A DNA stretch of 18,404 bases from a virus (taxonomy: Duplodnaviria > Heunggongvirae > Uroviricota > Caudoviricetes). This document shows positions 2,465-18,238 of the stretch, piece by piece. Location of the stretch: the IMG/VR virus record IMGVR_UViG_3300029713_000154, one strand, 5' to 3'. The stretch's first letter is position 1. Each line of letters begins with the position of its first letter. The position numbers and the translations under genes were made by a program. The notes beneath the pieces are model-generated. The model did not search any database. It saw nothing but the letters and a program-made list of their open reading frames with translations, and was not told the DNA's origin.

Positions 2465-2481
2465 AGCCCGGCGTTATTTTA
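2453..2481 (+). terminator. rho-independent terminator of the SPFH-NTase operon, shared with the convergent island operon
   Basis: CGCCGGGC (2453-2460), loop GTGAA, GCCCGGCG (2466-2473), then TTATTTTA. The NTase stop codon lies in the loop. The stop of the convergent 151-aa gene (2479-2481) lies in the T-tract. Confidence 0.6.
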
Positions 2482-3545: not shown

Positions 3546-3551
3546 TTTTAA

Positions 3552-5378: not shown

Positions 5379-5380
5379 AA

Positions 5381-6028: not shown

Positions 6029-7121
6029 TCGTGACGTCTATTGCGGTGCATTCCGCCCACTCATGCGCCTGCAAAATACGTTTTGTAGGCATATTCAGCG
6101 CAACGTCATAGACGCCATCGACCTGTAACACTTTGATTATCTGGTTTGGCACAATGTCCTGCCCCAGATGTTTCTGCCGCTGTTGCGTCCAGAGGCTAAT
6201 CGCTTTACGCGCTGCAGCCAGCGTTGTCTCCTGATCGGCGGTGGTAAACAGCGTTAGCTGCGCACGGATCTCATATGGCACTCGAAGAGCGCATTTCGCA
6301 CTCACTTTGTCGGTCAGCGGACGTTTTTTCTCCTTGCTAACCTCCTGTTCAATTTGCGCGAGCAGTTCTATTCCCGGCAGTCCGTTCAGAGTTAGCGGGT
6401 AGATCTCCACGCAGCCTTCTGGCAATCCCTCGTCCGGCCCCAGTACTGCAACGTCAATAATCGACTGGCTAACAGAAAGCGTATGAAAGCGGTAGGCACC
6501 ATAGCTGCCCGCATTACTAAAGCTTTCTGGTGCCAGTTGGATACGCTGGCGCAATGCGTCATCGCTCTCTTCACCGCAGCCGCCCGTTGACGCAGTCAGG
6601 TTGGTTACGTTGATGTCATAATGACCAATCCTGTCGACCAGTGCGCTAATTTGTGCAGGCTGCCAGCCGTTACCCTGTTCACCTGCTGCGAGGCTGGTGG
6701 CAGGAACGGCGATATGCAAACTCCTGGCCGGAAGCAGAACATCTTCATCGGTGGCGAACATCACGCTATCAGAGGCACTGGCCCGCGTTCCCTGGGGAAT
6801 CAGGATATTGCTGGTATACGCGCTGACGACCGAAAACTGCAACGTCGTTTTTGCCGGCTGCGCAGGCAAACGGTGAACGCCCACCAACTCCCCTAAATAA
6901 TCCAGCATTGGCGCGCGGGAATACGCGACCAGGTTCTGTTTCGCCGCTTCCTGAATGGCGATGCGTACAAGGTTTTCACGATAGGCAAACAGGTCGATGA
7001 GCAACCGCTCAGCCTGTGCCGGATAGAGTTTTTTACCGCTGGCATCTTCGTATTGCGCAATCATCTCACTGGTAATTTGCGCAGGATCGCGGTCAATAAA
7101 ATTGGGTTCGGCTATCGCCAT
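6006..7121 (-). CDS. baseplate wedge protein, gpJ (Baseplate_J) family
   Basis: 371-aa ORF overlapping gpW by 10 nt. The N-terminus MAIAEPNFIDRDPAQITSEMIAQYEDASGKKLYPAQAERLLIDLFAYRE is typical of P2 J / Mu gp47-type proteins. Confidence 0.9.
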   Translation of the reverse strand: MAIAEPNFIDRDPAQITSEMIAQYEDASGKKLYPAQAERLLIDLFAYRENLVRIAIQEAAKQNLVAYSRAPMLDYLGELVGVHRLPAQPAKTTLQFSVVSAYTSNILIPQGTRASASDSVMFATDEDVLLPARSLHIAVPATSLAAGEQGNGWQPAQISALVDRIGHYDINVTNLTASTGGCGEESDDALRQRIQLAPESFSNAGSYGAYRFHTLSVSQSIIDVAVLGPDEGLPEGCVEIYPLTLNGLPGIELLAQIEQEVSKEKKRPLTDKVSAKCALRVPYEIRAQLTLFTTADQETTLAAARKAISLWTQQRQKHLGQDIVPNQIIKVLQVDGVYDVALNMPTKRILQAHEWAECTAIDVTIAGVSDG

Positions 7122-7471
7122 AACACCTCCGTTGAGTTGATAACGCCGTCAGCGGCGCGCCATTGCACACGTAACGTCAGATGTTCGCCGTCGATTACTG
7201 GTGTCACCTTCAGCAACCGACAGCGCGGCTCCCACTGGCGGATGGCTTCCACCGACTCCCGTACCACATGCGGAATTGCCCGCTCGATGGGGTAATCGAT
7301 GTAGTGCCACAAGTTGCTGCCAAACAGCGGTCTGTGGGGATCACTGCCGCGCGGTGTGCGCAGAATGATGTGTATTGCCTGGTGAATATCATCCAGTCCG
7401 CAGACGTATTCTTCAGGCCGCTGCAAGGCCGGTTGCCAGTGCAGCGTTGAGGGTCGTGTTTTTGTGTTCAT
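7112..7471 (-). CDS. baseplate wedge protein, gpW/T4 gp25 family
   Basis: 119 aa. The motif LRTPRGSDPHRPLFGSNLWHYIDYP...AIRQWEPR is characteristic of the GPW_gp25 family. No Shine-Dalgarno sequence precedes the ATG (GAAAATACCCTCATG). Confidence 0.9.
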   Translation of the reverse strand: MNTKTRPSTLHWQPALQRPEEYVCGLDDIHQAIHIILRTPRGSDPHRPLFGSNLWHYIDYPIERAIPHVVRESVEAIRQWEPRCRLLKVTPVIDGEHLTLRVQWRAADGVINSTEVLWR

Positions 7472-7477
7472 GAGGGT

Positions 7478-7534
7478 ATTTTCGCCCTGAACGGGCTGTG
7501 GCGATATTAAAGCGATTTAGAAAACTGATTGATT
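7478..7534 (-). promoter_or_regulatory. candidate activator-dependent late promoter (copy 2 of a conserved module)
   Basis: The minus-strand 31-mer AATCAATCAGTTTTCTAAATCGCTTTAATAT (7534 down to 7504) matches the 31-mer at 16094-16064 at 22/31 positions, ungapped. CTAAATC (7520-7514) is followed by exactly 30 nt and then GAAAAT (7483-7478). There is no -35 hexamer. Confidence 0.4.
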
Positions 7535-7564
7535 AAAAAGAGAAAACCCGCCATCAGGCGGGTT
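7531..7564 (-). terminator. rho-independent terminator between gpV and gpW
   Basis: Minus strand: AACCCGCC TGAT GGCGGGTT followed by TTCTCTTTTTAATC. It starts 5 nt after the gpV stop. Confidence 0.65.
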
Positions 7565-7569
7565 AAACG

Positions 7570-8271
7570 TCAGTGTGTATGGTGGTTGGAGTTGCCACCG
7601 CTGTCCTGCAATGCGCCGCTGGCCTGAACGTTGCCGATCACGTTGACATTGCCAGTTATCGTGGCGGCGTTACCGATGCCTCCACTTCCTGCCATCCCGC
7701 CAAGCCAGGTGAGTTTTTTCATTACCGTGACATTGCCAGTAAAGGTGCTCATGGGCGCATCTACCGTCACTGCTGCCGCTTTAACATCGACCTTAGTGGC
7801 GTCGATGCTGACATCGGTCGCTTTAATATCGACGGTATCGGAAGTCACGGTGACCTGTTGGGCTTTAATCTCAACGTTGGGTGATGTCAGGCGGGTACTG
7901 TCGATAACCTCAATCACGATTTTCTCGATACCGCCGTTAATCGTCAGCTGGTGGGTGCTGCGGTCATATTCAAACGCTGCGCCATCAGAAAACTGGACGT
8001 AACGTTTATCGCGCGAGGCCACAGGCGCGGTGTCAACCGTAGAATAAACTGCGCCCAGCACCACGCCATCTTCACCGTTATTGTCCAGCAGAACTTCCAC
8101 TTGCTCGCCCATATCCGGTAGCCAGTAGTCTTTATTGTCCTGGGAATTGCGTTGAAGTACCGCAAGCCAGTTGCTCTTCAGATTGTCACACTCCGGAAGC
8201 GTGACTCGCACCCGAACGCTGGTTTCGTCAATATCGCTGATAATCCCCGTTTGACGGGTTACTCCTTTCAT
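7570..8271 (-). CDS. baseplate central spike, gpV family
   Basis: 233 aa. The N-terminal OB-like region (GIISDIDETSVRVRVTLPECDNLKSNWLAVLQ) is followed by a repetitive beta-helix-like V/T/D-rich segment and a His-rich tip (NSNHHTH). Confidence 0.85.
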   Translation of the reverse strand: MKGVTRQTGIISDIDETSVRVRVTLPECDNLKSNWLAVLQRNSQDNKDYWLPDMGEQVEVLLDNNGEDGVVLGAVYSTVDTAPVASRDKRYVQFSDGAAFEYDRSTHQLTINGGIEKIVIEVIDSTRLTSPNVEIKAQQVTVTSDTVDIKATDVSIDATKVDVKAAAVTVDAPMSTFTGNVTVMKKLTWLGGMAGSGGIGNAATITGNVNVIGNVQASGALQDSGGNSNHHTH

Positions 8272-8280
8272 ATTTCCTCC

Positions 8281-9321
8281 TTACTGGCTGGTCGCTGGCC
8301 CGCGTGACACGTCGATTTCAGTGGTATAGCCGCTGCGCACAAAACTGTGAGTCGATTTATCAATCAGCCACTGACCGGAAAGCACGCCAAAATCGGTCAG
8401 TTCAATTTTATTGCCCGCCGTCAGTTCCGGGCAGCCCATCATCCTGAGCGTTCCGGTTTGTTGATATTCGTTGTGGCTGTCGAGCGCGGCGTTGGCCTTT
8501 GCCTGTGCCGCGCCAACGTCCGGCGCCCGACTGTTCAGTTTTAGCGTGTCGGCACTGGTGCCGACTCCACGGGTAGACGGTTTTTGCTGGCTGTCGTGGG
8601 TGTAGATAACCAGTTCTTTTTTCTTACTATTTTGATGCTGTACGGTGGCATTTTTGTAGATACGGTTAATGGTATCTTTGAAGGTGAAATGCGAAACGTC
8701 TTTGCGGTCGATCGTTTTTACCGGCGCCAGGCAGCGCAGCGTGGGTAAATGCGAAAAAATCAGTTCTTTGGTGGTCACCTTTACCGCATAGCCATATTCG
8801 CTGGCCAGGCGCTTGAGAAATCCGACATCGGTTTCACCATACTGCGTTACCCGGTCGATGGTGAGCGGCTCGATTTTGCCCACCAGTTTCAGACCGTGCG
8901 TTTGGGCGATACGGCTGGCGATAGCCGAAAGCGTCGTTTCTTCAAAGCCCTGGCTGTTACGGGTACGCAGCGCCTGATTGACGGAAGTGGCGATGCCATC
9001 AATATTTACCGTAGAAGGTGGCGCTGAAATATCAATTTTATCAATAATATACTGACCACAATCGAGCAGCTTTTCCCCCTGATAACCCATATGCAGCGCC
9101 AGCGTATCGCCTTTGCCGGGATACCACTCTTTTATCCAGCGTCCATCGGTGTCATCCAGTGTAATCGCGATGGTATCTGACTCGTTTTTGATGCTGTCGT
9201 GGTAACTGATGCTGGTGACATAGGGTGTGATGTCATAAGTGATATCTTTATGCCCATACCAGAGGGTAAAAATGGGCGTGAGTGTGGCAAAGACGCCACC
9301 AGTTACGCTTATCTCAGCCAT
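8281..9321 (-). CDS. baseplate hub, P2 gpD (late control D/VgrG-N-like) family
   Basis: 346-aa ORF directly after gpX, overlapping it by 13 nt. Size and order (U-X-D-V) match the P2 tail module. Confidence 0.85.
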   Translation of the reverse strand: MAEISVTGGVFATLTPIFTLWYGHKDITYDITPYVTSISYHDSIKNESDTIAITLDDTDGRWIKEWYPGKGDTLALHMGYQGEKLLDCGQYIIDKIDISAPPSTVNIDGIATSVNQALRTRNSQGFEETTLSAIASRIAQTHGLKLVGKIEPLTIDRVTQYGETDVGFLKRLASEYGYAVKVTTKELIFSHLPTLRCLAPVKTIDRKDVSHFTFKDTINRIYKNATVQHQNSKKKELVIYTHDSQQKPSTRGVGTSADTLKLNSRAPDVGAAQAKANAALDSHNEYQQTGTLRMMGCPELTAGNKIELTDFGVLSGQWLIDKSTHSFVRSGYTTEIDVSRGPATSQ

Positions 9322-9521
9322 GGTGGGATCTCCGATAAGGTTTTATTGACGGAAATGACCGGAATAATGAGCTGAATACCGGAAGGCAGTACCGGGTAAA
9401 TGGCGACATGTGGATTGGCGACGATTATGCGTTCATAAGCCAGCGCATCACCGTAGTAATGCCATGCCAGATTATCCCAGCGTTCGCCGTCGGTGGTGAT
9501 ATGTTCAAGGTATCGCATCAC
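9309..9521 (-). CDS. tail protein X (LysM-like), P2 gpX family
   Basis: 70 aa. MMRYLEHITTDGERWDNLAWHYYGD...ERIIVANPHV resembles gpX. There is a 4-nt overlap with the gpU-like gene. Confidence 0.85.
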   Translation of the reverse strand: MMRYLEHITTDGERWDNLAWHYYGDALAYERIIVANPHVAIYPVLPSGIQLIIPVISVNKTLSEIPPWLR

Positions 9522-10471
9522 CAGATCCTCGTAATGGTCGCGGCAGCAAGCTGGCTCACTGTGGGAGTGGTTTGTTGTACCGTTGTTCGTGCCTGATCAA
9601 CCAACGTTGCGGCTTTATCAAACGTCGCTTCGGCGATGTCGCTGGTAATGTCGTCGAAAAGCGCCTGAGCATGGTCAACCAGTGTACTGGCGTCATTGGC
9701 GCAGTCCCGGATACCTGGCATGTTACCCAGTAAAGTTTTAATCTGCGCCGACAACGCTTTTGGGAGTCCTGCCAGCGTTTGCAGATCCATTGGCTGTTTA
9801 AACAGGGTTTCGATGGCGTCGATTGTCTTTTTCAATGACGTAATTATCTTTTCACACTTTTCTTTTAACACTTTGGCCTCTTTAATCATTGCTTTCACTT
9901 TTGCCACCGTTTTTTTAATATCTTCAATGGCTTGTGTCAGTTCATCCAGCATCTCTTTGGCCTTACGCATACCTTCTTCGATGGCGTTTAATATCTGATC
10001 AAACCAGGACTCCACCATGTCGGGAAAATCGCTCGCCTTTTCCTCAATGTTAGGCTCCTGGGTGGTAATCGCCGGAGGTAAAAGTGGATTTTTAGGATCG
10101 CCGGTGTACTCCTGGAGCGACATCGTTCCGTTTTGGGCAATCACATTGCCCCAGGGATCGGTGTGCTGGTGGGTGGCGGTTAGCTCCGTAATTACAAACC
10201 AGCCGCGATAATCGCCATTGCCAAATACCAGTGCCATCGCCTTGTGAGCAAGCATGGCTTCACGCAGTCGATTAAGCTCTGTTGTGGGCTGGCAAAACTG
10301 GCTGTGCAGGGAAAATTCCAGCGCCAGCATATCCAGCTTATCGCCAATAAACTGCACACCGGGTTTGCCTTCTATACGGGCATGTGTGGCGTAATCCACG
10401 CCCATTGTGCTTTTAAAGCCGTCCCAGAATGCGACAACCTTAAATTCAATCTCTCCTAAAACGGCATACAT
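9518..10471 (-). CDS. tail protein, P2 gpU / Mu gp43(N)-type N-domain with long helical C-terminal extension
   Basis: 317 aa. The first ~125 aa (MYAVLGEIEFKV...GKPGVQFIGDKLDMLALEFSLHS...GDYRGWFVITELT) look like the GpU family. The remaining ~190 aa are Lys/Glu/Ala-rich and predicted coiled-coil. Confidence 0.75.
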   Translation of the reverse strand: MYAVLGEIEFKVVAFWDGFKSTMGVDYATHARIEGKPGVQFIGDKLDMLALEFSLHSQFCQPTTELNRLREAMLAHKAMALVFGNGDYRGWFVITELTATHQHTDPWGNVIAQNGTMSLQEYTGDPKNPLLPPAITTQEPNIEEKASDFPDMVESWFDQILNAIEEGMRKAKEMLDELTQAIEDIKKTVAKVKAMIKEAKVLKEKCEKIITSLKKTIDAIETLFKQPMDLQTLAGLPKALSAQIKTLLGNMPGIRDCANDASTLVDHAQALFDDITSDIAEATFDKAATLVDQARTTVQQTTPTVSQLAAATITRIW

Positions 10472-12846
10472 CAGGCATACCCCCGGCGCTGTTGTTGCGC
10501 CATTACGTCGTTAATCATTCTTTCAAGTTCGCGTTTACTCATCGTCAACACGTTCTGAATCTCTTTAGTGGTGTTTTGTCCGTTACCCTGCACGGTAATC
10601 TGTGGCGAAAAATTCACCTGAACTTTTCCAGAGGAACGGGAAGGTAGCGTCGCCGGTTTGGTTACGGATTTACCAGGTAAAGAGGCCAATGCGGGTTTGG
10701 CGGCTGTATTTTTTGCCGCAGGTGCCGATGGCGGCGTTGTCGTTTTACTGGATGGCGCGAGTTGTTTCCCCACCGGAGGCGTTAAAATCGCACCGGCAAC
10801 GCCTGGAACAACGCTCGCGGGGGAGACGGATGCGGTATTAGTCGTGCTTGTAATAGCTGTAGCCGATCCTTCTGTACTAATACCCATCGTGGTTTTTAGC
10901 CAGTCTGGGATGACGTTTTTGACCTGATCAATAATGCCTTTCAGAGCGGGGAAGGCATTCATTATGCCGTCGGCCAGGCTAGCCAGAAGATTGCTGCCGA
11001 ACTCGCTAAAACTCGCAGGCATTTCAACACCAAACCAATTCATCACACTGGAAAAGGCGCTATAGAACAACTCCAGCGGCGACCAGTCGAGAATTAACCG
11101 ACAAATTTCTGCAATGCCGCCGTCAAAGGCCGTGGTGATACGTTGCCAGATGGTAGAAAAGAACCTGGAGATAGGCTCCCAGTTGCGATAAATCAGATAA
11201 GCAGCGCCCGCAATCGCAGTGATGACCAGACCAATGGGATTCATCAATAAAACCCTACCCAACCAGAAGACGGTCTGACCTGCCTGTTTCAGTGCGCCAA
11301 TCAGGCCACGACCAAGCAGTTGCGTTAGCCATTTTGCACCGCCACCCAATGACTTAACCGCTGATAGCATCTTACTTGCCCCGCCTGTGAGTGCCAGACT
11401 TGCCCTGACTTTCAGGAAGATATCGACCAGACGAATAAACGGCGAGGCGATGAAGTTCGCGCCCAGTTTTAAAACATTCAGCGCGCCGTTAAACAGCCAA
11501 ATCGCCCCGACGATTTTCGCAATGTTTTGCACCAGTGCCGGGTGCTCACGTAGCCAGGCGCTGAACTGGCGAACAACCGGCGTAAGGCTTTGTGCCAGCT
11601 CGCCAATCAGCGGCATTAATTGCAAGCCAATGCTGAGCCATAAATCATTTAACGCCAGCTGTAACGCTTTAGTCTGTTCAATGGGCGAGGCCATTTGCGC
11701 AGAAAAGTCGGCATCAATCAGATTCTTGCTGCTGGCTTGCATGGCAGAGGCTTTTAACTGGCGATATTCCTCCATATTCGCCAGCATAGGTGCCAGGAAT
11801 TCCACAGTTTGCGCATCGCCGAACATTTCGCCCAGATTAAATTGCGTCACCATCGATTGCAGCGCATTGCTGCGAGCAGATAAATCTTCAATCTGCATAG
11901 TGCGTTTGAAGGTGCCGAGGATCGCCGGATTCATCTTCTCAAGCTGCATTTGCACGATATGAGTCATGGCTTCGCTAACACCCATACCGTTTTGCTGATG
12001 CTCAAGCAGAGAGCCTTGCAGATCAACGCCCTGGCTGGCGAACCAGTTATCGGTTTTTTTCGAAAAGGTGGTTTGCAGAAAGTGGTCGAAATTCTCCGCC
12101 GCCGCACTGGCGCTGGCCCCGTTTTTCATGGCGATCTGCATGATGGCGGTCAGTTCAGCCATACCTTCCAGACCCTGAGCGCCGGTTTTACCTGCAAATT
12201 TCTCTATCCACTGCGTTTGTTCGGCAACGGCAGGCCCACCGCTTTTGCTAATGCCATACATCATGTTTTGCGTGGCGTGGAAATTTTCCGGGGCAATATT
12301 CAATCGATCATGAGTCGCGAGCGCGGCATTCGCCCACGTTTCAGCACTTTCGCGCGTGGCGGTGGCAGCTTTGGCGATCTCCGGCATATAACGGTTGAGA
12401 TCCTGCATCGACGACAAATTGCCTTCGATCAGCGTTTGGGCTGCGTTCTGTAAGGTGGTCTGCTGCTGGTTAAAATCCATGCTCCAGTCGCGCAGATTAA
12501 GGCTGAGCGTCTCGCGGGTTGTAGCATTCATCCCACCTTTGGTCGCCATATTGACCATGTTGTCCTGGAACTCATATGGCAACTTCCAGTCGGGGGCTTC
12601 AACATTGAATACCTTGCTAAATTGCCCGGCAAATGTTTGGGTTTTCTCCATTAGATCAGCGCGGTTCCGGCTATTTTCCTCCAGGCGGAGAGCAGAATCG
12701 GCAAGTTGCTGCGTTAGTTTGATTACTGTCGCTTGCTGAGAAGAGAGAGCTAACAAAGTTCTGGCGTTGAGTGAGCCGTAACGGGCTATTGCCTGCGTCA
12801 ACGTCTCATTACGCGCCTGAAGCTGGGTAATAATATCGTTGGCCAA
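10471..12846 (-). CDS. tail tape measure protein
   Basis: 791 aa, helical and Ala/Gln-rich, with central hydrophobic segments and a Pro/Ser/Thr-rich tail. It sits after the chaperone pair. The only start after the upstream in-frame TAA is TTG at 12846, with AAGAGA upstream. Confidence 0.9.
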   Translation of the reverse strand: MANDIITQLQARNETLTQAIARYGSLNARTLLALSSQQATVIKLTQQLADSALRLEENSRNRADLMEKTQTFAGQFSKVFNVEAPDWKLPYEFQDNMVNMATKGGMNATTRETLSLNLRDWSMDFNQQQTTLQNAAQTLIEGNLSSMQDLNRYMPEIAKAATATRESAETWANAALATHDRLNIAPENFHATQNMMYGISKSGGPAVAEQTQWIEKFAGKTGAQGLEGMAELTAIMQIAMKNGASASAAAENFDHFLQTTFSKKTDNWFASQGVDLQGSLLEHQQNGMGVSEAMTHIVQMQLEKMNPAILGTFKRTMQIEDLSARSNALQSMVTQFNLGEMFGDAQTVEFLAPMLANMEEYRQLKASAMQASSKNLIDADFSAQMASPIEQTKALQLALNDLWLSIGLQLMPLIGELAQSLTPVVRQFSAWLREHPALVQNIAKIVGAIWLFNGALNVLKLGANFIASPFIRLVDIFLKVRASLALTGGASKMLSAVKSLGGGAKWLTQLLGRGLIGALKQAGQTVFWLGRVLLMNPIGLVITAIAGAAYLIYRNWEPISRFFSTIWQRITTAFDGGIAEICRLILDWSPLELFYSAFSSVMNWFGVEMPASFSEFGSNLLASLADGIMNAFPALKGIIDQVKNVIPDWLKTTMGISTEGSATAITSTTNTASVSPASVVPGVAGAILTPPVGKQLAPSSKTTTPPSAPAAKNTAAKPALASLPGKSVTKPATLPSRSSGKVQVNFSPQITVQGNGQNTTKEIQNVLTMSKRELERMINDVMAQQQRRGYA

Positions 12847-12947
12847 AATTGTTTCTCTTTAATTATTGATAATGGCCCACTGGTTATTTTTCTAAAAAAG
12901 GGGCTGGGAAGAAATAAACCTGGCGGGCTTTGAAGAACTCGCAGACA

Positions 12948-13076
12948 TCAGGTCTGCGAGCCATATTCGATCTTTATTTGGTCGCTGGCTTCATCCAGCC
13001 AGTTGCTAAAGTCATCTATGGTGAGCGCGTCTATCTCACTGGGTGGAAAGCGAAACCATCTCGCCAGTAGCGCCAT
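12948..13076 (-). CDS. GpE-family segment (E' extension of the tail assembly chaperone; frameshift product or small independent ORF)
   Basis: The frame +1 relative to gpE encodes ...RWFRFPPSEIDALTIDDFSNWLDEASDQIKIEYGSQT*. This resembles the conserved F-x-W-P-P-S-E...W motif of the P2 E+E' C-terminus as I recall it. An in-frame ATG at 13076 would give 42 aa. Confidence 0.55.
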   Translation of the reverse strand: MALLARWFRFPPSEIDALTIDDFSNWLDEASDQIKIEYGSQT

Positions 13077-13353
13077 TGCCTGCCATAGCTGGGGAGGATT
13101 CTGTAACCACGGTAAGCATGGATTGAAATCGTTTCTGCAATGCCTGGTAATCCAGCAAATCCATTTCAGCTAAATCTTCTGGCACCAGTCCGGTCATCGC
13201 CGCCATTAGCGGTTCATCCCACTCTTCGGGTTTTTCGCTGATCCGGCGCGCGTTGCGCATATCTTTTACTTTCAGGCGACGTAATTGCAGCGAGTCGATA
13301 GTATTTCCTGCTGCCGACGTAAATGGGAACTGTAAGATATAATGCTCTTTCAT
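13036..13353 (-). CDS. tail assembly chaperone, P2 gpE-like
   Basis: 105-aa acidic ORF between the tube and tape measure genes, with an AAGGA SD. ...RLKVKDMRNARRISEKPEEWDE... is typical of gpE-like chaperones. Confidence 0.8.
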   Translation of the reverse strand: MKEHYILQFPFTSAAGNTIDSLQLRRLKVKDMRNARRISEKPEEWDEPLMAAMTGLVPEDLAEMDLLDYQALQKRFQSMLTVVTESSPAMAGNGATGEMVSLSTQ

Positions 13354-13378
13354 TTTGTATCCTTATTTATGTTGCGAA

Positions 13379-13400
13379 GTTCGGGGCCGTAGCCCCGAAT
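13379..13400 (-). promoter_or_regulatory. intercistronic GC-rich stem-loop after the tube gene
   Basis: Minus strand: ATTCGGGGC TACG GCCCCGAAT (9-bp stem), starting 3 nt after the tube stop. There is no U-tract. It could be an mRNA-stabilising or attenuating structure separating highly expressed sheath/tube genes from the chaperone and TMP genes. Confidence 0.4.
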
Positions 13401-13403
13401 AAT

Positions 13404-13928
13404 TTAGCCACCGATGTTATTGCGATAGGTACTTAATTGATCCACGCCGTTAACCCGAAAAATATTCGCCATATAATCAAGTTCAAGCAGCGTTTCACCA
13501 TCGACCACTTGTTTAATATAAGTACAACCAAAGGCGCTGCTGAATTCCGGGTTTTCATTCTGTTTAAATGTGCCCAAGGGATTCTTTTTAAACATCACGG
13601 TTAAATGTGTCACTAACGCTAATTGATTCGCTTTCCCCTGGGAGTTATAGCAATCAATACTGGAGCGGCACTGTAATGCTACTGCCTGCCACGGGTTTGC
13701 CGTTTTACGCATTACGTCCTGATAAAAGGAGTTCCATTTAATTTCCCCCTCCAGTTTATCGAAACCAGCCGGGAGTTCGATTTTACCGACCATACCCAGT
13801 GCTTTATGCTCTTGCATAATTAAACTGACATCCGGCAATTTAATTTCGGTTGCACGACCTAAAAGATTATTACCATCGAGATAAATATTGGCGTTGGTAA
13901 TACGGTTAATTTGAATTTTTCCAGCCAT
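13404..13928 (-). CDS. tail tube protein, P2 FII family
   Basis: 174 aa, immediately after the sheath gene (TAATG overlap). The N-terminus MAGKIQINRITNANIYLDGNNLLGRATEIKLPD is typical of FII-type tubes. Confidence 0.9.
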   Translation of the reverse strand: MAGKIQINRITNANIYLDGNNLLGRATEIKLPDVSLIMQEHKALGMVGKIELPAGFDKLEGEIKWNSFYQDVMRKTANPWQAVALQCRSSIDCYNSQGKANQLALVTHLTVMFKKNPLGTFKQNENPEFSSAFGCTYIKQVVDGETLLELDYMANIFRVNGVDQLSTYRNNIGG

Positions 13929-15358
13929 TAGCTATTGCTCTCCAGAGAGACTAAATATTCAGAAGTAATTTCAGTTTCAAACGTCAGACGTTCCAGCGGC
14001 GGCGGCGGGGTGAATTTATAGCTAAGCAATAAATGCCCGGCGCTGAGTTCAGCCGGTGAATTTCGCGCCGGATCGTACCAGCACTCAAAGCCAAGCAGTG
14101 CGCCGTCGGCAATCAGTTTTCGGCCCCAGGTATTTACCGATTCGGTCAGCGCGTCAATAAGAGCCTGATTAATCGGCATATCAATATACTGCTGACTGAA
14201 ATAACGGATTGACTCATTAATTACATCGCCTGTCCGGCGAACGTTTTCAAAGTTACGCATATGGGTCACGGTAGGCCATGCCGCTGTGCGGTTGCCCCAC
14301 AAGCGCAGACCAGAACCGTAACTATTGAAAATAGTGGTAATGCCGTTTTCGTTGAGCTGATTCACTTCGCTTTGTGGATCATCAATCATTGCAGAAAGCG
14401 AACGTTCAATACCGGTAATACCCTGAATTTCCTGGTTTGAGTTGCTCCACCAGAAACCTTTTTCGAGGTCTACTTTGGCACGTAGCCCGGCAGCGCGCGA
14501 AGAGAGTGGTTCGAGAACTTCCTGGTTAGTGATGCCATCGTAAACTTTGACGTGTGGGTAACATAAACGCACACGATCAGAGCTGGTATTGAAGTTGATA
14601 GCCCCTTGCGAACCGCGTCCAGCCAATACCTGCTGGAATGTCGTCCCAATCGGAGCATCAATGTAGGTAAGCGCACCGAGTTTTTCCGCTTGTGCAATCA
14701 GCTCAGTAGTTACTGATTTTTGCGTACAAAACACGGGAGCAAGCAGGATTTTGGCGTAGAAACCGTACAGGTTATAGGTGTCCTGAAGGAGTTTCATCCC
14801 CGTGCGGTCGCCTGCGGTATTTACGGCACCGATAATATCGGCTGCGGTGACCTTTGTAGGGTCGCACCAGGAATAATAGGCGCAAACTTTCGCACCAGGA
14901 GGAATGTCGGCTCCTTTACGGGTAATTATGCCTGTTTGTTCATCTACGCTAAATGCTGCGGTGTTAAAGGTTGATGAATTTGATGAAGAGGGCTTTAGTA
15001 CCACGTTACGCACATTGCGGTGAGCGAGCTTCGCCTGGTTGTTAGCGTCAAAAGTGATACTCTCATTGCTGATGTTGGAGCCATGTTTTGCCGGATCCAG
15101 CACGTTAATCACCACCACCGTACCGGCACCGTGGTCATAAATCGCCTTCAGTGCCTGTGGGATCGTAAAGTTAGCCTGAGTCGAGCCAAACTGCGCAGCA
15201 TCGCTTTCAGAAAGGCATAATGTTGGTTTATTTACCGGACCGCAGGGGGCCGTACCGATTAAAGCGATGACGGCGGATTTTACCGCTTTAACCGGACGCG
15301 GGCCGGTTTCAATTTCAATGGTTTCTACACCGTGCAGGTAATTAGCTGCCATGTACAA
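13928..15358 (-). CDS. contractile tail sheath protein, P2 FI / Mu L family
   Basis: 476 aa. The position, the N-terminus (YLHGVETIEIETGPRPV) and the C-terminal LRLWGNRTAAWP motif are consistent with myophage sheath proteins. Confidence 0.95.
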   Translation of the reverse strand: MYMAANYLHGVETIEIETGPRPVKAVKSAVIALIGTAPCGPVNKPTLCLSESDAAQFGSTQANFTIPQALKAIYDHGAGTVVVINVLDPAKHGSNISNESITFDANNQAKLAHRNVRNVVLKPSSSNSSTFNTAAFSVDEQTGIITRKGADIPPGAKVCAYYSWCDPTKVTAADIIGAVNTAGDRTGMKLLQDTYNLYGFYAKILLAPVFCTQKSVTTELIAQAEKLGALTYIDAPIGTTFQQVLAGRGSQGAINFNTSSDRVRLCYPHVKVYDGITNQEVLEPLSSRAAGLRAKVDLEKGFWWSNSNQEIQGITGIERSLSAMIDDPQSEVNQLNENGITTIFNSYGSGLRLWGNRTAAWPTVTHMRNFENVRRTGDVINESIRYFSQQYIDMPINQALIDALTESVNTWGRKLIADGALLGFECWYDPARNSPAELSAGHLLLSYKFTPPPPLERLTFETEITSEYLVSLESNS

Positions 15359-15539
15359 TTTCCTCTACGTTATTTTGTTCTTCCTGAGTGATGACAGGAG
15401 TCAGATGATTGCGGGCAATCATGGTCATGACCCACTCGTTGTCTTCTGGCAGATCAATTTCACTGTTCGGCCACAATAAGATTTCTTGTCCATCGGCAAG
15501 GGTGACGCCGCTTGCCGGGCCGTTGTAGATGTATTTCAT
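15342..15539 (-). CDS. small tail-module protein (Mu gp38/DUF2635-like by position)
   Basis: 65-aa ORF overlapping both neighbours (ATGA with the upstream gene, 17 nt with the sheath gene). The assignment is by synteny with Mu/BcepMu-type tail modules only. Confidence 0.55.
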   Translation of the reverse strand: MKYIYNGPASGVTLADGQEILLWPNSEIDLPEDNEWVMTMIARNHLTPVITQEEQNNVEEIVHGS

Positions 15540-15991
15540 TCAGTTTCCTCGTAGTTAACTTCCGTAAGCAGGGGAAGATCCGTGCTTTCCTGTTCAGCGA
15601 TAAACAGCGAGCTGGTCGCCATTTCCAGGATGTAGCGGCAGAAACCGCCGCTCTCACCCGTATTAATTTCTTTTTCAAGCCAAAGCAGACGATCGCAATC
15701 AGGAAGCTGAAGGCCGCCCAATGCGCTGCGTATGCAATCAAGTGCGTTTAACGCGTCACAATTTTTGTCAACAATAACGGTGGCGGTTAAGCGGAGTATT
15801 TGCTGTTGCACGATGGCATCACTGCTTTCGGGTGTGGTAAAGACAGAACCGCTATAATTAATAATCACTGCAACTTGTTGTGTCTGTGGAATATATTTCT
15901 GGGCATCCGTAGATGAAATAAATATATCCATTTCAGGATGCCGATCACGTAATTTGACCATGACATAATTCATTGCAGATAAAATTTTCAT
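15536..15991 (-). CDS. tail completion/terminator-like protein (Mu gp37 / BcepMu Gp37-like by position)
   Basis: 151-aa ORF that is the first gene of the tail block. The family call rests on synteny (gp37-gp38-sheath-tube) and size, not on a recognised motif. Confidence 0.55.
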   Translation of the reverse strand: MKILSAMNYVMVKLRDRHPEMDIFISSTDAQKYIPQTQQVAVIINYSGSVFTTPESSDAIVQQQILRLTATVIVDKNCDALNALDCIRSALGGLQLPDCDRLLWLEKEINTGESGGFCRYILEMATSSLFIAEQESTDLPLLTEVNYEETE

Positions 15992-16037
15992 ATGAGGTGT
16001 ACCTTAATTACCGCTCACTTCGTTATCGTTGAGATGT

Positions 16038-16094
16038 ATTATGAAGCAGTGAAGGTGAAGAATCTTTTAATGTGATTTAGAGAAAAAATTGAAT
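16038..16094 (-). promoter_or_regulatory. candidate activator-dependent late promoter (copy 1 of a conserved module)
   Basis: Minus-strand 31-mer ATTCAATTTTTTCTCTAAATCACATTAAAAG (16094 down to 16064). CTAAATC (16080-16074) is followed by exactly 30 nt and then CATAAT (16043-16038). The -35 position reads AAGATT, a poor match, as expected for Mor/C-type activated promoters. Confidence 0.4.
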
Positions 16095-16097
16095 GGC

Positions 16098-16133
16098 TAT
16101 AAAAAATCCCCACACTTACGTAAAGGTGGGGAT
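16098..16133 (-). terminator. rho-independent terminator between the lysis cassette and the tail genes
   Basis: Minus strand: ATCCCCAC, a 12-nt loop, GTGGGGAT, then TTTTTATAG. The hairpin begins 4 nt after the stop of the 104-aa gene. Confidence 0.7.
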
Positions 16134-16137
16134 GTAT

Positions 16138-16452
16138 TTAATAACTGCCACGTTGTAACAGCTCGATTTTGCTATATAAGGCATCCAGCTTTGCTTCTAA
16201 TACTGCTTGCCCACGAAGATAATCTTCTCTGCGGACATAATGCAGCGGAAGCTCGGCACGAAATTCAAGAAACTCTCTTTCCAGTTTCGACCAACTTGTT
16301 TCTGATTCCCTGCGGGCATTTTCCAGAGACTCAAAACGCTCATTAAGTCGTTTTTCAATTTGCGCTAACAGCAGTTTTCCGGCAGCAAACATTAATCCAA
16401 CGAAGGAAAGCATAAGGGAGATCACTTCCCAAAAATCGATACTGAGTTTCAT
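16138..16452 (-). CDS. N-terminally membrane-anchored coiled-coil protein (i-spanin-like or Mu gp25/DUF2730-like lysis accessory)
   Basis: 104 aa with a strong GAGGGG SD. It has one TM helix (VISLMLSFVGLMFAAGKLLLA) followed by a charged helical region containing ELPLHYVRREDYLRGQAVLEAKLDAL. It is the last gene of the lysis block. Confidence 0.65.
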   Translation of the reverse strand: MKLSIDFWEVISLMLSFVGLMFAAGKLLLAQIEKRLNERFESLENARRESETSWSKLEREFLEFRAELPLHYVRREDYLRGQAVLEAKLDALYSKIELLQRGSY

Positions 16453-16464
16453 CGGCCCCTCTGA

Positions 16465-17070
16465 TTAGTGAAGACAGCTTGCCTGTCCCCAGAGTAAATA
16501 GCGGGCAGCGTGTTGATAGAGAATCATCTTTGGATAGCGACGATTTTCTCGCCAGTTCGCGGCGCTGCGCCCGGCGTTGACTTGCTCGACATGACCAAAC
16601 CAGCGAGTGGCATCTAACCCTTTGGATGCAGCCAGTTTTTTATCCCGGTTAACCCACCCCTGACCGCCGTTATAGGCGCTTAGGGTAAACGCCATACGCT
16701 GACAGTCATTTTGCGCAGAGATGTTTTTCCACAAATGCTGGTCATATTGCACCAGCGCGCGAATCGCCCAGGTTGGGTTATACGGTTTGTTTTCACGCAA
16801 TTGTGGATACAACTGGCTTATCCATGTCGCAGTAGCAGGCATAAATTGCGCCATACCTTGTGCGCCAACGGGGGAACGTACCATTGGCTGCCAGGCGGAC
16901 TCCTGGTGTAATTGCCCGGCAAAGTCGGCCACTGGGGCATTCAGCCCCCAGACTTCTCGAGCTGTACGAATTAGTTCGTTTCGCCATGCCAGAGAGGCTC
17001 GCGGCGGTTCAGAGGCGTTAAGCGGGAAAAGAACGAAAATAATCATAGACGCGATATATTTCAGCCACAT
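16465..17070 (-). CDS. lytic transglycosylase endolysin (SLT domain) with N-terminal signal/SAR-like segment
   Basis: The catalytic-region motif AGQLHQESAWQPMVRSPVGAQGMAQFMP (E-S ... GLMQ-like) is typical of family-1 lytic transglycosylases. I prefer ATG 17070 (MWLKYIASMIIFVLFPLNASEPP...), 2 nt after the holin stop, over the track start at 17148. That start would overlap the holin by 76 nt and add an Arg-rich non-signal leader. Confidence 0.85.
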   Translation of the reverse strand: MWLKYIASMIIFVLFPLNASEPPRASLAWRNELIRTAREVWGLNAPVADFAGQLHQESAWQPMVRSPVGAQGMAQFMPATATWISQLYPQLRENKPYNPTWAIRALVQYDQHLWKNISAQNDCQRMAFTLSAYNGGQGWVNRDKKLAASKGLDATRWFGHVEQVNAGRSAANWRENRRYPKMILYQHAARYLLWGQASCLH

Positions 17071-17072
17071 CA

Positions 17073-17360
17073 CTATAGCCCTAAGGCGACGGAAAGACAG
17101 ACGGCGGCAACGATGATGGCGCGGCGAATCATTGCCGCCGCGCAGCAACGCGGTTCCTTCCAGGGGCTAAAAGAGTCAGGCCGTGCCCAGGGGAACAAAC
17201 TGCGATCGAGCCAGTATCCCAGAACCGCGGAAAGCGAAACCAGGCTTAGTTTATAAATGACGACCGGGATCTGTGCTGAAGAGGTCCAGCCGATCACGAC
17301 AAACAGCGCGACGGAAGCGACCAGCCAGCCGGAAAGCCGGGGAAAAGTGACTTTTTTCAT
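17073..17360 (-). CDS. putative holin (multi-TM small membrane protein)
   Basis: 95 aa with a strong AGGAG SD. There are three hydrophobic segments (WLVASVALFVVIGW, IYKLSLVSLSAVLGYWL, AIIVAAVCLSVALGL). It is the first gene of the lysis block, directly upstream of the endolysin. Confidence 0.7.
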   Translation of the reverse strand: MKKVTFPRLSGWLVASVALFVVIGWTSSAQIPVVIYKLSLVSLSAVLGYWLDRSLFPWARPDSFSPWKEPRCCAAAMIRRAIIVAAVCLSVALGL

Positions 17361-17656
17361 ACGATATCTCCTGATAAGTGAGCGTTTAGTGTCGTCAGAA
17401 CCCGCCAGTGAAGAATGAAAAAAGCTTTAATAAATAAGTTTAAAAAATAGATTCTCTATAAATGAACATGCCCGCTAATAAATCGACTCAGCAATTAAAG
17501 AGCAAACGGTGACCTGGCGAATAAGCGCGTCATTATGCAGGGAAAAGATGATGGTGGATCGTAGGAATAGTCGATAGTTATTTGATTTTTAAAGTTTGTT
17601 TAAGAAAGTCAGCGACTGTGAGGGAAACGATCTTTTTACACTACAGGTAAAAATAA

Positions 17657-17676
17657 TACTGTATGTGCATACAGTA
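17657..17676. promoter_or_regulatory. LexA (SOS) operator
   Basis: TACTGTATGTGCATACAGTA is a perfect CTGT-N8-ACAG palindrome. It differs at one central base from the E. coli recA operator as I recall it (TACTGTATGAGCATACAGTA). Flanking hexamers sit at recA-like positions on both strands:
- Minus strand: ACGATA (17680-17675) and TATTAT (17658-17653).
- Plus strand: ATAATA (17653-17658) and TATCGT (17675-17680). Confidence 0.8.
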
Positions 17677-17896: not shown

Positions 17897-18238
17897 ATGA
17901 TACGAAAATCAAAAGAGATGGCCCGGACACCGGAGATCATTAACGACCTGGCTTTTCATGCATCGCAAGTTCTGATTGAAAGCATCAATCTCGACAGTTC
18001 ATCGGCAGAAAATGTGGGTTTTGCCATTGCCGACCGAATGATGCGTAACTGGGGCGGACAAAGCATTTATTTCCCTAAGGGGATCTCCGGACGAGCATCG
18101 GAGCGTGACTACCAAATCTATAGCGAGTGCGATGGGCGCAACTACGCCGAATTAGCGAAGAAATATAATCTGACGCTGCAATGGATTTATAAGATAGTCA
18201 AACGTGTACATACGGAGAAGCAGCAGAGTCGTATGTAG
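17897..18238 (+). CDS. Mor/C-family late transcription activator
   Basis: 113 aa with GGAG 7 nt upstream of the ATG. The C-terminal half NWGGQSIYFPKGISGRASERDYQIYSECDGRNYAELAKKYNLTLQWIYKIVKR matches the Mor-family pattern (G..IYIPK ... R...I...F.G.N..ELA.KY.LS...IY.I). Confidence 0.85.
   Translation: MIRKSKEMARTPEIINDLAFHASQVLIESINLDSSSAENVGFAIADRMMRNWGGQSIYFPKGISGRASERDYQIYSECDGRNYAELAKKYNLTLQWIYKIVKRVHTEKQQSRM

What the first reader, a model, noticed from the sequence alone, without database searches (positions are those of the whole stretch)
15992..16137. 146-bp junction where the head module should be: terminator plus conserved late-promoter-like module
The lysis block ends at 16138 and is followed within 4 nt by a strong intrinsic terminator (16098-16133). 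Immediately after its U-tract comes a 31-nt module (16094-16064, minus strand ATTCAATTTTTTCTCTAAATCACATTAAAAG). Exactly 30 nt after its CTAAATC core there is a good -10 (CATAAT, 16043-16038) with no -35. That architecture is expected for Mor/C-activated promoters, which bind around -30 to -55.

The same module with the same spacing recurs at 7504-7534. This short junction is therefore both the apparent deletion scar of the capsid/packaging genes and a self-contained terminator-promoter switch for the tail operon.
Basis: partly seen in the sequence, partly recalled or inferred. Interest (0 to 1): 0.55.

Follow-up and report, generated by a model that had tools for sequence, protein, structure and literature searches.

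The report
Terminator plus Mor-type tail-operon promoter
The 146-bp gap is a conserved control point of an old, head-less phage-tail gene cluster in E. coli: a transcription stop signal after the lysis genes, then an activator-dependent promoter inherited from the ancestral Mu-like phage that restarts transcription for the tail genes.

Summary
A terminator hairpin (16108-16133, then a T-run) is followed by a module (16080-16064) and a -10-like CATAAT (16043-16038). The module recurs with identical 30-nt spacing at 7520-7478, and in weaker form at 17430-17388 upstream of the holin gene.

A weight matrix trained only on other genera ranks these three sites 1-3 in the window. The motif is T-rich + TTAAA-N4-TTTAA + 23 nt + nAnAnT, with no -35. 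Its dyad centre lies near -42.5, as in the Mor/C-dependent promoters of phage Mu.

The motif sits upstream of the holin, protease/scaffold, tail-chaperone and baseplate-W genes in intact BcepMu-like phages, and upstream of gp37 in every head-less relative.

"Deletion scar" is only partly right. About 8 kb of head genes are absent relative to intact phages. However, the junction keeps the phage's internal head-operon promoter and lies next to lysC in four genera. All genes are intact, with dN/dS of 0.04-0.27.

I read it as a domesticated Mu-type tailocin-like cluster, related to but distinct from carotovoricin. A conserved LexA box lies next to its Mor gene. Activation by Mor, termination and particle production are inferred, not shown.

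The parts
17897..18238 (+). Mor/C-family transcription activator gene (113 aa). It is divergent from the lysis/tail genes and adjacent to host lysC.
   Evidence: Pfam PF08765 Mor, E = 2e-37. PHROG 'late transcriptional activator'. Matches PDB 1rr7 (Mu Mor, E = 7e-8) and 9l0x (Mu C). The recognition-helix motif SLQWIYKIVK is shared with BcepMu gp01, KP12 and PhiKM but not with Mu Mor or C.
17657..17676 (.). LexA-box-like palindrome TACTGTATGTGCATACAGTA (CTGT-N8-ACAG), followed by the conserved GTGTAAAATG.
   Evidence: The box and its flank are identical in block across E. coli, Salmonella, two Superficieibacter and Phytobacter, within an otherwise diverged intergenic region. It is absent upstream of the Mor gene in phages and in the other head-less lineages. 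It overlaps a TTTACA-16-TACAGT promoter on the minus strand and a TAAAAT -10 on the plus strand. Which direction it controls is unresolved.
17388..17436 (-). Lysis-operon late-promoter module, a variant form: TTAAAGC at 17430-17424 and the -10-like GACACT at 17393-17388, 28 nt before the holin ATG.
   Evidence: Third-best hit in the window with the independent matrix: 17.5 bits against a null third-best maximum of 12.1. The same position and spacing occur in Salmonella, Superficieibacter, Phytobacter, KP12, PhiKM, BcepMu and carotovoricin loci.
16138..17360 (-). Lysis block: holin (17073-17360), SLT transglycosylase endolysin (16465-17070) and a 104-aa membrane protein (16138-16452; equivalent to BcepMu gp25).
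   Evidence: Pfam Holin_2-3, E = 4e-27, and SLT, E = 1e-14. PHROG holin, endolysin and phrog_462. No homologue of the phage Rz-like 'lipoprotein' was found.
16101..16133 (-). Intrinsic terminator of the lysis operon: hairpin at 16108-16133 and T-run at 16101-16106.
   Evidence: Folds at -18.1 kcal/mol, z = -4.7. The hairpin plus T-run is conserved in 5 genera, with 3 pairs showing compensatory change.
16038..16094 (-). Tail-operon late promoter. T-rich tract at 16086-16081. Dyad half-sites CTAAA at 16080-16076 and ATTAA at 16071-16067. -10 CATAAT at 16043-16038. Predicted start near 16031.
   Evidence: 27.7 bits with a matrix trained on other genera. Homologous to the G-I intergenic promoter of the intact phages PhiKM and KP12, and to the gp37-upstream promoter of all head-less lineages. 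No -35.
15992..16030 (-). Predicted 5' leader of the tail operon, with the AAGG Shine-Dalgarno sequence before the gp37 ATG at 15991.
   Evidence: The leader motif CAACGATAACG matches the phage gene-I leader (GACAACATAACG). AAGG and ATG are invariant in 5 genera.
7570..15991 (-). Tail operon 1: Gp37 (hexameric; PDB 2gjv orthologue), a 65-aa protein, sheath, tube, assembly chaperone, tape measure, gpU-like, X, D and V spike.
   Evidence: ORFs. RefSeq annotation of the identical E. coli S10 locus. Pfam and PHROG hits. Gp37 against PDB 2gjv, E = 1e-53.
7535..7564 (-). Intrinsic terminator after gene V: AACCCGCC-TGAT-GGCGGGTT followed by a T-run.
   Evidence: Found by the terminator scan. Folds at -15.3 kcal/mol, z = -4.1. 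Present in E. coli and both Superficieibacter. Absent from intact phages and carotovoricin loci, where the V stop codon abuts the motif.
7472..7526 (-). Baseplate/fibre-operon late promoter. Dyad CTAAA at 7520-7516 and TTTAA at 7511-7507. -10 GAAAAT at 7483-7478, lying 6 nt before the W ATG at 7471.
   Evidence: 32.6 bits against a null maximum of 25.1. The same site occurs upstream of W in 67 locus hits. In 37 of 37 non-identical W sites the ATG lies 5-9 nt after the hexamer.
2479..7471 (-). Tail operon 2: W/gp25, J, I, tail fibre (with 168-nt tandem repeats), a DUF4376 fibre-assembly protein and a 151-aa protein.

Best explanation
The interval 15992-16137 is the boundary between two transcription units of a domesticated, head-less tail gene cluster. 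The cluster is of the BcepMu (Mu-like) type and resembles a tailocin.

**What the sequence shows**
- An intrinsic terminator ends the holin-endolysin-membrane protein operon.
- Ten bases further on lies a sigma-70 promoter with a -10 (CATAAT) and no -35.
- In place of the -35 there is a dyad, TTAAA-N4-TTTAA, centred about -42.5, with a T-rich tract at about -55 to -50.
- The same promoter type drives the lysis operon (17430-17388) and the baseplate/fibre operon (7520-7478).
- The junction promoter is the ancestral phage's internal head-operon promoter, the equivalent of Mu P_I between gene G and the protease/scaffold gene. It is now fused to gp37, the first tail gene.

**What is inferred**
- The adjacent Mor-family protein binds the dyad as a dimer or tetramer. 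It recruits RNA polymerase as Mu Mor and C do, so that the three units fire together but are insulated from one another by the terminators.
- A conserved LexA box next to the Mor gene places the cascade under SOS control.
For: **The module is real and specific**
- The three window sites rank 1-3 with a matrix trained on other genera, and each beats its null.

**The -10 is independently supported**
- Sites were detected from the upstream block only, giving 64 non-redundant sites. Information reappears only at positions 38-43: G-A-T-A-C-T, with A39 and T43 each at 89%. The spacer between carries no information.

**Positional logic**
- Of 231 matrix hits in 3.5 Mb, 154 lie within 400 nt upstream, on the coding strand, of W (67), I (41), gp37 (24) or holin (22). 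Most of the rest fall at one further conserved site upstream of the tail-chaperone gene.
- BcepMu itself carries the motif upstream of holin, I and W.

**Architecture matches the Mu paradigm**
- Published Mu promoters have a 16-bp dyad centred at -43.5 that replaces the -35, a recognisable -10, and a proximal UP subsite at -57 to -52 (PMC4390567, PMC2582627).

**The activator is present**
- A Mor-family gene is adjacent. Its recognition helix is shared with the BcepMu-type phages that carry the same motif, and differs from Mu Mor and C, whose promoters lack the motif.
- Carotovoricin loci have the motif but neither a LexA box nor a Mor gene nearby, so they need a trans-acting activator.

**Homology to the phage P_I-type promoter**
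-.

**Selection**
- The terminator shows covariation.
- Motif columns are invariant in 5 genera while the spacers diverge.
- The site next to lysC-pgi is syntenic.
- dN/dS is 0.04-0.27.
- Head loss happened several times, and each time the promoter remained in front of gp37.
Against: - There is no experimental datum for this locus: no mapped 5' or 3' RNA ends, no binding assay, no reporter.
- The motif sequence differs from the Mu C and Mor boxes, and the matrix finds nothing at Mu's late promoters. The assignment to Mor therefore rests on architecture, position and co-occurrence.
- Related sites are partly homologous rather than independent.
- The lysis-operon site in this clade is a weak variant: its second half-site reads TTTTCA.
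- The LexA-box promoter with the better consensus reads towards the holin gene, not towards the Mor gene. The order LexA to Mor is therefore not established.
- The dyad centre is -42.5 if the last T of the -10 is at -7, one base off the -43.5 published for Mu.
Confidence: 0.72

Rival explanations
1. Activator-independent promoter, or a promoter controlled by a different factor. On this reading the A/T-rich module acts as an UP element or as a site for a host nucleoid protein (IHF, Fis or H-NS), and the Mor-family protein is not what reads it.
For: - The module is A/T-rich, and CATAAT is a reasonable -10.
- An IHF-like AATCAATCAGTTT lies just upstream of the junction-B module.
- The motif does not resemble the known Mu Mor and C boxes.
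Against: - A specific dyad with near-invariant positions (T2, A3, A4, T11, T12, A13) is kept from Burkholderia to Escherichia, at a fixed distance from the -10. This is more than A/T richness.
- It occurs only in front of late operons of elements that encode, or are known to depend on, a Mor-family protein.
- The recognition helix co-varies with the motif family.
Confidence: 0.15
2. Simple deletion scar in a decaying prophage. On this reading the terminator and the module are leftovers with no present function.
For: Intact relatives carry about 8 kb of head genes between the lysis genes and gp37. Recent head deletions of this type exist in Brenneria, next to almost identical intact prophages.
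Against: - The same junction sits at the same lysC site in four genera and in all 196 E. coli carriers.
- All 17 genes compared between E. coli and Salmonella are intact. dN/dS is 0.04-0.27 for the 16 where it could be computed; dS could not be estimated for Mor.
- The terminator shows compensatory changes.
- Terminators were added in front of both internal promoters in this clade only.
Confidence: 0.06
3. Chance similarity of two A/T-rich intergenic stretches.
For: The 11-nt core alone is not enriched in the window: 6 matches against 7 expected. The repeat finder did not list the pair among its top families.
Against: The independent matrix test and the occurrence of the same module at orthologous positions in about 80 loci.
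Confidence: 0.02

Closest known systems
Mor/C-dependent promoters of bacteriophage Mu (Pm; late promoters Plys, PI, PP, Pmom)
   Same: - Sigma-70 promoters with a recognisable -10 and no -35.
- An imperfect dyad of two 5-bp half-sites centred near -43, overlapping the -35 region.
- An A/T-rich proximal UP-like tract just upstream.
- An activator of the Mor/C family (PMC4390567, PMC2582627).
- The positions also correspond: one promoter in front of the lysis genes and one between G and I.
   Different: - The recognition sequence is different: TTAAA-N4-TTTAA, a 14-bp element with a 4-bp spacer, against the 16-bp Mu elements. The matrix finds nothing at the Mu late promoters.
- There is one activator gene here, against Mu's Mor-then-C cascade.
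- Here the activator gene stands alone next to a LexA box rather than at the end of a phage early operon.
- Terminators precede the internal promoters.
Carotovoricin Er (Ctv) of Pectobacterium, a Mu-type R-tailocin
   Same: - Head-less descendant of a BcepMu-like phage.
- Order: holin, SLT, membrane protein, then terminator plus the same promoter module, then gp37, sheath, tube and so on.
- Sheath about 75% identical.
- Several transcription units: four were reported by Yamada 2006, as cited in PMC13195805, and four motif sites are seen per locus.
- Induced by DNA damage (PMC13566846).
- From my own knowledge: its activator RdgB belongs to the Mor family (Liu et al. 1994, cited in PMC13566846). 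I could not read that paper.
   Different: - It forms a separate clade in the sheath tree, so head loss was independent.
- Different chromosomal site: tolC_2/ybiB against lysC-pgi (PMC13195805).
- Ctv keeps the spanin and the gp26-like gene, and has a fourth promoter upstream of the chaperone gene.
- Ctv has no Mor gene and no LexA box in the cluster.
- Ctv has no terminator in front of the W promoter.
R-type pyocin regulation (RecA, PrtR, PrtN, P-box) in Pseudomonas aeruginosa (from my own knowledge)
   Same: The logic is the same: DNA damage relieves repression of a small dedicated activator, which then binds a repeated box in front of the tail and lysis operons of a head-less phage tail cluster.
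   Different: - The proteins are unrelated (PrtN is not in the Mor family) and the ancestry is P2-like.
- The repressor there is a dedicated cI-like protein. Here the host's LexA box appears to be used directly.

Membership tests
Mor/C-dependent (Mu-type) activator-dependent promoter | Recognisable sigma-70 -10 hexamer | tested here: met
   CATAAT at 16043-16038 and GAAAAT at 7483-7478. Across 64 non-redundant sites detected without using the hexamer, A39 and T43 are each 89% conserved.
Mor/C-dependent (Mu-type) activator-dependent promoter | No -35 hexamer at 16-18 bp from the -10 | tested here: met
   The consensus scan finds no -35/-10 pair at either junction. The hexamer at the -35 position is AAGATT, and the TTAAAA element lies 21 nt from the -10.
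Mor/C-dependent (Mu-type) activator-dependent promoter | Imperfect dyad of two 5-bp half-sites centred at about -43.5, overlapping the -35 region | tested here: met
   TTAAA (positions 1-5) and TTTAA (positions 10-14) are reverse complements of each other. The centre is -42.5 if the last T of the -10 is at -7. This is 1 bp off the published value, and the element is 14 bp rather than 16 bp (PMC4390567, PMC2582627).
Mor/C-dependent (Mu-type) activator-dependent promoter | A Mor/C-family activator encoded by the element | tested here: met
   Gene at 17897-18238. Pfam PF08765, E = 2e-37. Matches PDB 1rr7 and 9l0x.
Mor/C-dependent (Mu-type) activator-dependent promoter | Sequence match to the Mu Mor or C binding sites | tested here: not met
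   The matrix gives at most 12 bits in Mu and no hit at Plys, PI, PP or Pmom. The recognition helix also differs from Mu Mor and C. This is a sister specificity, not the Mu box.
Mor/C-dependent (Mu-type) activator-dependent promoter | Transcription depends on the activator, and the activator footprints about -55 to -30 | not testable with these tools
   This needs a reporter fusion, EMSA or a DNase footprint.
Intrinsic (Rho-independent) terminator | G+C-rich hairpin immediately followed by a U-run, downstream of a stop codon | tested here: met
   Folds at -18.1 kcal/mol with z = -4.7, followed by UUUUUU, and begins 4 nt after the TAA. It was missed by the simple scan because the loop exceeds 8 nt.
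Intrinsic (Rho-independent) terminator | Structure conserved through compensatory change | tested here: met
   Across 5 genera there are 12 pairs, 3 of them with changes on both sides. The sample is small.
Intrinsic (Rho-independent) terminator | RNA 3' ends at the U-run in vivo | not testable with these tools
   This needs Term-seq or 3'-RACE.
R-type tailocin of Mu/BcepMu ancestry (carotovoricin-like) | Complete contractile-tail gene set with a lysis cassette, and no capsid, portal, terminase or transposase genes | tested here: met
   The window has holin, SLT, gp37, sheath, tube, TAC, TMP, U, X, D, V, W, J, I and a fibre gene. No terS, terL, portal, F, G, I-protease, capsid, gp36 or transposase hits were found. 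No spanin homologue was found.
R-type tailocin of Mu/BcepMu ancestry (carotovoricin-like) | Fixed chromosomal locus shared between species, with genes under purifying selection | tested here: met
   The cluster lies next to lysC-pgi in 4 genera. dN/dS is 0.04-0.27.
R-type tailocin of Mu/BcepMu ancestry (carotovoricin-like) | Orthology with the carotovoricin cluster itself | tested here: not met
   It forms a separate clade in the sheath tree, sits at a different locus and has partly different gene content. It is a parallel lineage, not Ctv.
R-type tailocin of Mu/BcepMu ancestry (carotovoricin-like) | Production of head-less particles with killing activity after induction | not testable with these tools
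   No literature was found on this cluster as a tailocin.
Deletion scar of a defective prophage | Neighbouring phage genes decaying, with the junction recent or variable among relatives | tested here: not met

The most novel reading that the evidence does not exclude
Escherichia, Salmonella (LT2 STM4198-STM4219), Superficieibacter and Phytobacter share an anciently domesticated, so far uncharacterised Mu-type R-tailocin next to lysC.

On this reading, host LexA directly gates a stand-alone Mor-family activator. That activator fires three terminator-insulated operons through a TTAAA-N4-TTTAA box. The baseplate operon would start as a leaderless mRNA from a -10 element embedded in a G+C-rich inverted repeat.

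Head loss in BcepMu-like phages would then be a recurrent route to tailocins that each time re-uses the phage's P_I-type promoter for the tail genes.
Probability: 0.45. Interest if true: 0.62.

Novelty: new member of a known kind. Interest (0 to 1): 0.47.

Why it matters
- **A concrete, testable operator.** The analysis gives a defined operator and promoter model for the BcepMu branch of the Mor/C activator family. Until now the family has been known experimentally only from Mu itself.
- **A candidate tailocin in model organisms.** It flags a conserved, apparently intact phage-tail weapon locus in the two best-studied enteric bacteria, including Salmonella LT2. The locus is annotated only as phage remnants. 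It can be tested with standard genetics: mitomycin induction, a Mor-gene deletion, reporter fusions, electron microscopy and killing assays.
- **How a phage becomes a host-controlled device.** The head genes were lost, the internal late promoter was re-used, terminators were added and the activator was placed beside a host LexA box.

Tried and rejected
- **Gp37 as a search query.** The genome-contig scan with the single Gp37 protein found nothing. The Gp37 homologue search reached only Escherichia and Salmonella. I switched to a sheath alignment, which worked.
- **Phage-only matrix.** A six-seed, upstream-block-only matrix was over-fitted. Junction A scored 13.9 bits, which is not above the null. 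It was replaced by the 61-site matrix.
- **TTAAAA/TAATAT as the -10.** I considered reading this element as the -10, with TCAAT as a -35. I rejected it because the P_I-type sites lack the invariant final T. The information profile also places the -10 signal 30 nt downstream of the 7-mer.
- **Rfam.** No family matches anywhere in the window.
- **Same event as carotovoricin.** I looked for a single head-deletion event shared with carotovoricin. The sheath tree and the differing junction endpoints reject it.
- **The E. coli ST131 'tailocin' paper.** It describes a P2-like intact prophage, not this element.
- **Direction of the LexA-box promoter.** Small-ORF listing and promoter/terminator scans did not resolve it.
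- **Primary papers.** The RdgB/pnlA paper and the Yamada 2006 carotovoricin paper are not held. I therefore could not test whether the experimentally bound RdgB site carries this motif.

Full report
**1. What the window is**

The window is E. coli chromosome, 100% identical to strain S10. From right to left on the minus strand it carries:
- holin, an SLT endolysin and a 104-aa membrane protein;
- the 146-bp junction;
- Gp37, a 65-aa protein, sheath, tube, assembly chaperone, tape measure, gpU-like, X, D and V;
- a 98-bp gap;
- W, J, I, a tail fibre, a fibre-assembly protein and a 151-aa protein.

A Mor-family gene is divergent at the right end, next to host lysC. There are no capsid, portal, terminase or transposase genes.

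**2. The observation**

- The lysis block ends at 16138.
- The hairpin plus U-run at 16133-16101 folds at -18.1 kcal/mol, z = -4.7.
- The module lies at 16094-16064.
- CATAAT lies at 16043-16038, exactly 30 nt after CTAAATC.

The second copy has CTAAATC at 7520-7514 and GAAAAT at 7483-7478. It has the same spacing and is also preceded by a terminator (7564-7545). No -35/-10 consensus promoter is found at either place. The 11-nt core alone is not enriched, so significance had to be tested on the whole module.

**3. Relatives**

The Salmonella orthologue corresponds to LT2 STM4198-STM4219. It has the same head-less order at the same lysC site, at 75% nucleotide identity.

Intact enterobacterial BcepMu-like phages (KP12 contig, PhiKM) carry terS, terL, portal, F, G, protease/scaffold (I), capsid and gp36 between the lysis genes and gp37.

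A sheath-alignment scan of one genome per species returned 80 loci. Marker mapping shows many intact prophages and several head-less lineages:
- Escherichia, Salmonella, Superficieibacter, Phytobacter (and Lelliottia);
- Pectobacterium, whose cluster is bounded by tolC and is therefore carotovoricin (PMC13195805);
- Brenneria;
- Lonsdalea;
- Chromobacterium.

A sheath tree places these lineages apart from one another, some next to intact prophages of the same genus. Head loss was therefore recurrent.

**4. The module is a conserved late-promoter motif**

The same module, with the same 30-nt spacing to an nAnnnT hexamer, is seen at three places in each of four genomes: upstream of the holin gene; upstream of I or gp37; and upstream of W. 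The four genomes are E. coli, Salmonella, KP12 and PhiKM.

A matrix scan of all loci gave 231 hits of at least 14 bits in 3.5 Mb. Of these, 154 lie within 400 nt upstream, on the coding strand, of W, I, gp37 or holin. Most of the rest fall at a fourth conserved site upstream of the tail-chaperone gene, a site absent from the E. coli clade. BcepMu itself has the motif upstream of holin, I and W.

Sites were then detected from the upstream block alone, giving 64 non-redundant sites.
- The spacer carries no information.
- Positions 38-43 read G-A-T-A-C-T, with A39 and T43 each at 89%. These are the two hallmark positions of a -10.

A matrix trained on 61 sites from other genera ranks the three window sites first to third, at 32.6, 27.7 and 17.5 bits. 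Each exceeds the corresponding null maximum of 25.1, 14.8 and 12.1 bits.

**5. Anatomy and likely mechanism**

Take the last T of the -10 as -7.
- Half-site TTAAA then lies at -49 to -45.
- Its reverse complement TTTAA lies at -40 to -36.
- They are separated by a G+C-rich 4-mer, so the dyad centre is at -42.5.
- A T-rich tract lies at about -55 to -50.
- No -35 is present.

Published work on Mu describes Mor and C as binding a 16-bp imperfect dyad centred at -43.5 that replaces the -35. Those promoters have a recognisable -10, and Pm has a proximal UP subsite at -57 to -52 (PMC4390567, PMC2582627). A 2025 preprint reports tetramers contacting two adjacent major grooves (10.1101/2025.05.02.651988).

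The architecture therefore matches, but the sequence does not: Mu's late promoters score nothing with the matrix. Consistently, the recognition helix SLQWIYKIVK is shared by the E. coli, Salmonella, Phytobacter, KP12, PhiKM, BcepMu and Chromobacterium proteins. It differs in Mu Mor and C.

I infer that the adjacent Mor-family protein activates all three promoters. This is an inference from architecture, position and co-occurrence, not a demonstrated fact.

**6. What the junction is made of**

The promoter and about 25 nt of its leader align with the phage intergenic promoter between G and I, the position of Mu P_I. Relative to an intact phage, two segments are missing:
- from the gp26-like gene through G, plus most of the G-I spacer;
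- from I through gp36.

In every independent head-less lineage the same promoter sits 31-162 nt upstream of gp37, with different endpoints. In Brenneria alni the start codon of I is fused to codon 2 of gp37. Brenneria izbisi keeps a stub of I.

**7. Old and maintained, not a fresh scar**

- All five loci of the E. coli clade lie next to lysC-pgi.
- All 196 E. coli carriers, out of 5426 complete genomes, have the contiguous short junction.
- Between E. coli and Salmonella all 17 genes compared are intact. dN/dS is 0.04-0.27 for the 16 where it could be computed, with saturated dS; dS could not be estimated for Mor.
- In the five-genus alignment of the junction the invariant columns are the terminator base, the T-run, the motif, the -10, the Shine-Dalgarno sequence and the ATG.
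- The terminator stem varies, with compensatory changes at 3 pairs.
- Terminators in front of both internal promoters are a feature of this clade. Intact phages and carotovoricin have the V stop codon abutting the W motif.

**8. Upstream control**

A perfect LexA-type box with a conserved flank lies in the Mor-holin intergenic region, at 17657-17676. It is conserved in block in all five genera. It is absent from phages and from the other head-less lineages, and also from carotovoricin, which has no Mor gene nearby.

The box overlaps two candidate promoters:
- TTTACA-16-TACAGT, reading towards the holin gene;
- a TAAAAT -10, reading towards the Mor gene.

I could not decide which one it controls. 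The cascade SOS, LexA, Mor, late promoters is the most economical reading, but it is unproven.

**9. Comparison with what is known**

- **Promoter type.** The closest is the Mu Mor/C class.
- **Element.** The closest is carotovoricin, a 'Mu-type tailocin' (PMC13566846) with four transcription units (Yamada 2006, as cited in PMC13195805) and SOS-dependent production. The E. coli/Salmonella cluster is a parallel lineage, not an orthologue.
- **Literature on this cluster.** I found no paper treating it as a tailocin. Its Gp37 orthologue, STM4215, has a solved structure with six chains, PDB 2gjv.

**10. Verdict**

- The terminator and Mor-type-promoter interpretation is supported by strong comparative evidence, though untested experimentally.
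- The 'deletion scar' interpretation is only partly right.
- I class this as a new member of known kinds and rate it of moderate interest.

Noticed in passing
window 17657-17676 (flank to 17687): A perfect LexA-type box, TACTGTATGTGCATACAGTA, followed by GTGTAAAATG. It is conserved in block in five genera within an otherwise diverged Mor-holin intergenic region. It overlaps candidate promoters on both strands, and which direction it controls is unresolved.
   Followed up: partly
window 7471-7490; W sites in L003-L084: In 37 of 37 non-identical sites the -10-like hexamer of the W promoter lies 5-9 nt before the W ATG, with no Shine-Dalgarno sequence. This suggests a leaderless mRNA. In 24 of 37 sites the hexamer is the loop of a G+C-rich inverted repeat of at least 5 bp (for example GGGGGC-GATACT-GCCCCC-ATG), against 9 of 134 in the null. 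Unexplained.
   Followed up: partly
L002 8340-11670 (Salmonella SARB27; LT2 STM4204-4206): In Salmonella the O-antigen glucosylation operon gtrABC is inserted exactly at junction B, between V and the W promoter. It is flanked by REP-like direct repeats (CACCGGCCCGGTAAGCGCAGAAGCGCCACCGGGCAAA).
   Followed up: partly
L004 4900-5030; L003 16660-16790; L086 18730-18770; L010 and L013 upstream of gp37: The G-I intergenic region of intact BcepMu-like phages holds a hairpin with the core CCTTTATAAAGGCTTTAC, strongly conserved from Burkholderia to Enterobacteria. It sits where Mu has its strong gyrase site. It is kept in the Brenneria head-less loci and lost in E. coli.
   Followed up: no
L005-L084 (for example L014 12067, L003 10689): Intact phages and carotovoricin loci have a fourth copy of the late-promoter motif, after the tube gene and upstream of the tail-chaperone gene. 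The E. coli/Salmonella clade lacks it, so that clade has three units rather than four.
   Followed up: partly
L007, L010, L013, L041, L043, L045; L072-L075, L077, L082, L084: Other head-less BcepMu-type clusters exist. Lelliottia, Brenneria and Lonsdalea still carry the transposase and Mor genes. In Chromobacterium the Mor gene lies directly beside gp37, with no lysis genes between. The Lonsdalea junctions are filled with short tandem repeats.
   Followed up: partly
window 4251-4811: The tail-fibre gene contains three to four tandem 168-nt (56-aa) repeats at 78-85% identity.
   Followed up: no
window 16138-17360: The lysis cassette of the E. coli clade has a holin, an SLT endolysin and the gp25-like membrane protein. 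It has no homologue of the phage Rz/Rz1-type spanin or of the gp26-like gene, both of which carotovoricin retains.
   Followed up: no
phage-collection records OR845313, OR851449, OR851066 and OR851641: Short records (1.5-3.6 kb) are deposited as 'Escherichia phage ECO95 1-6-1' and 'Salmonella phage S.Kent 1-2-1'. They match the sheath-gp37-junction-lysis region at 75-85% identity. They look like fragments of this chromosomal cluster rather than phages.
   Followed up: no
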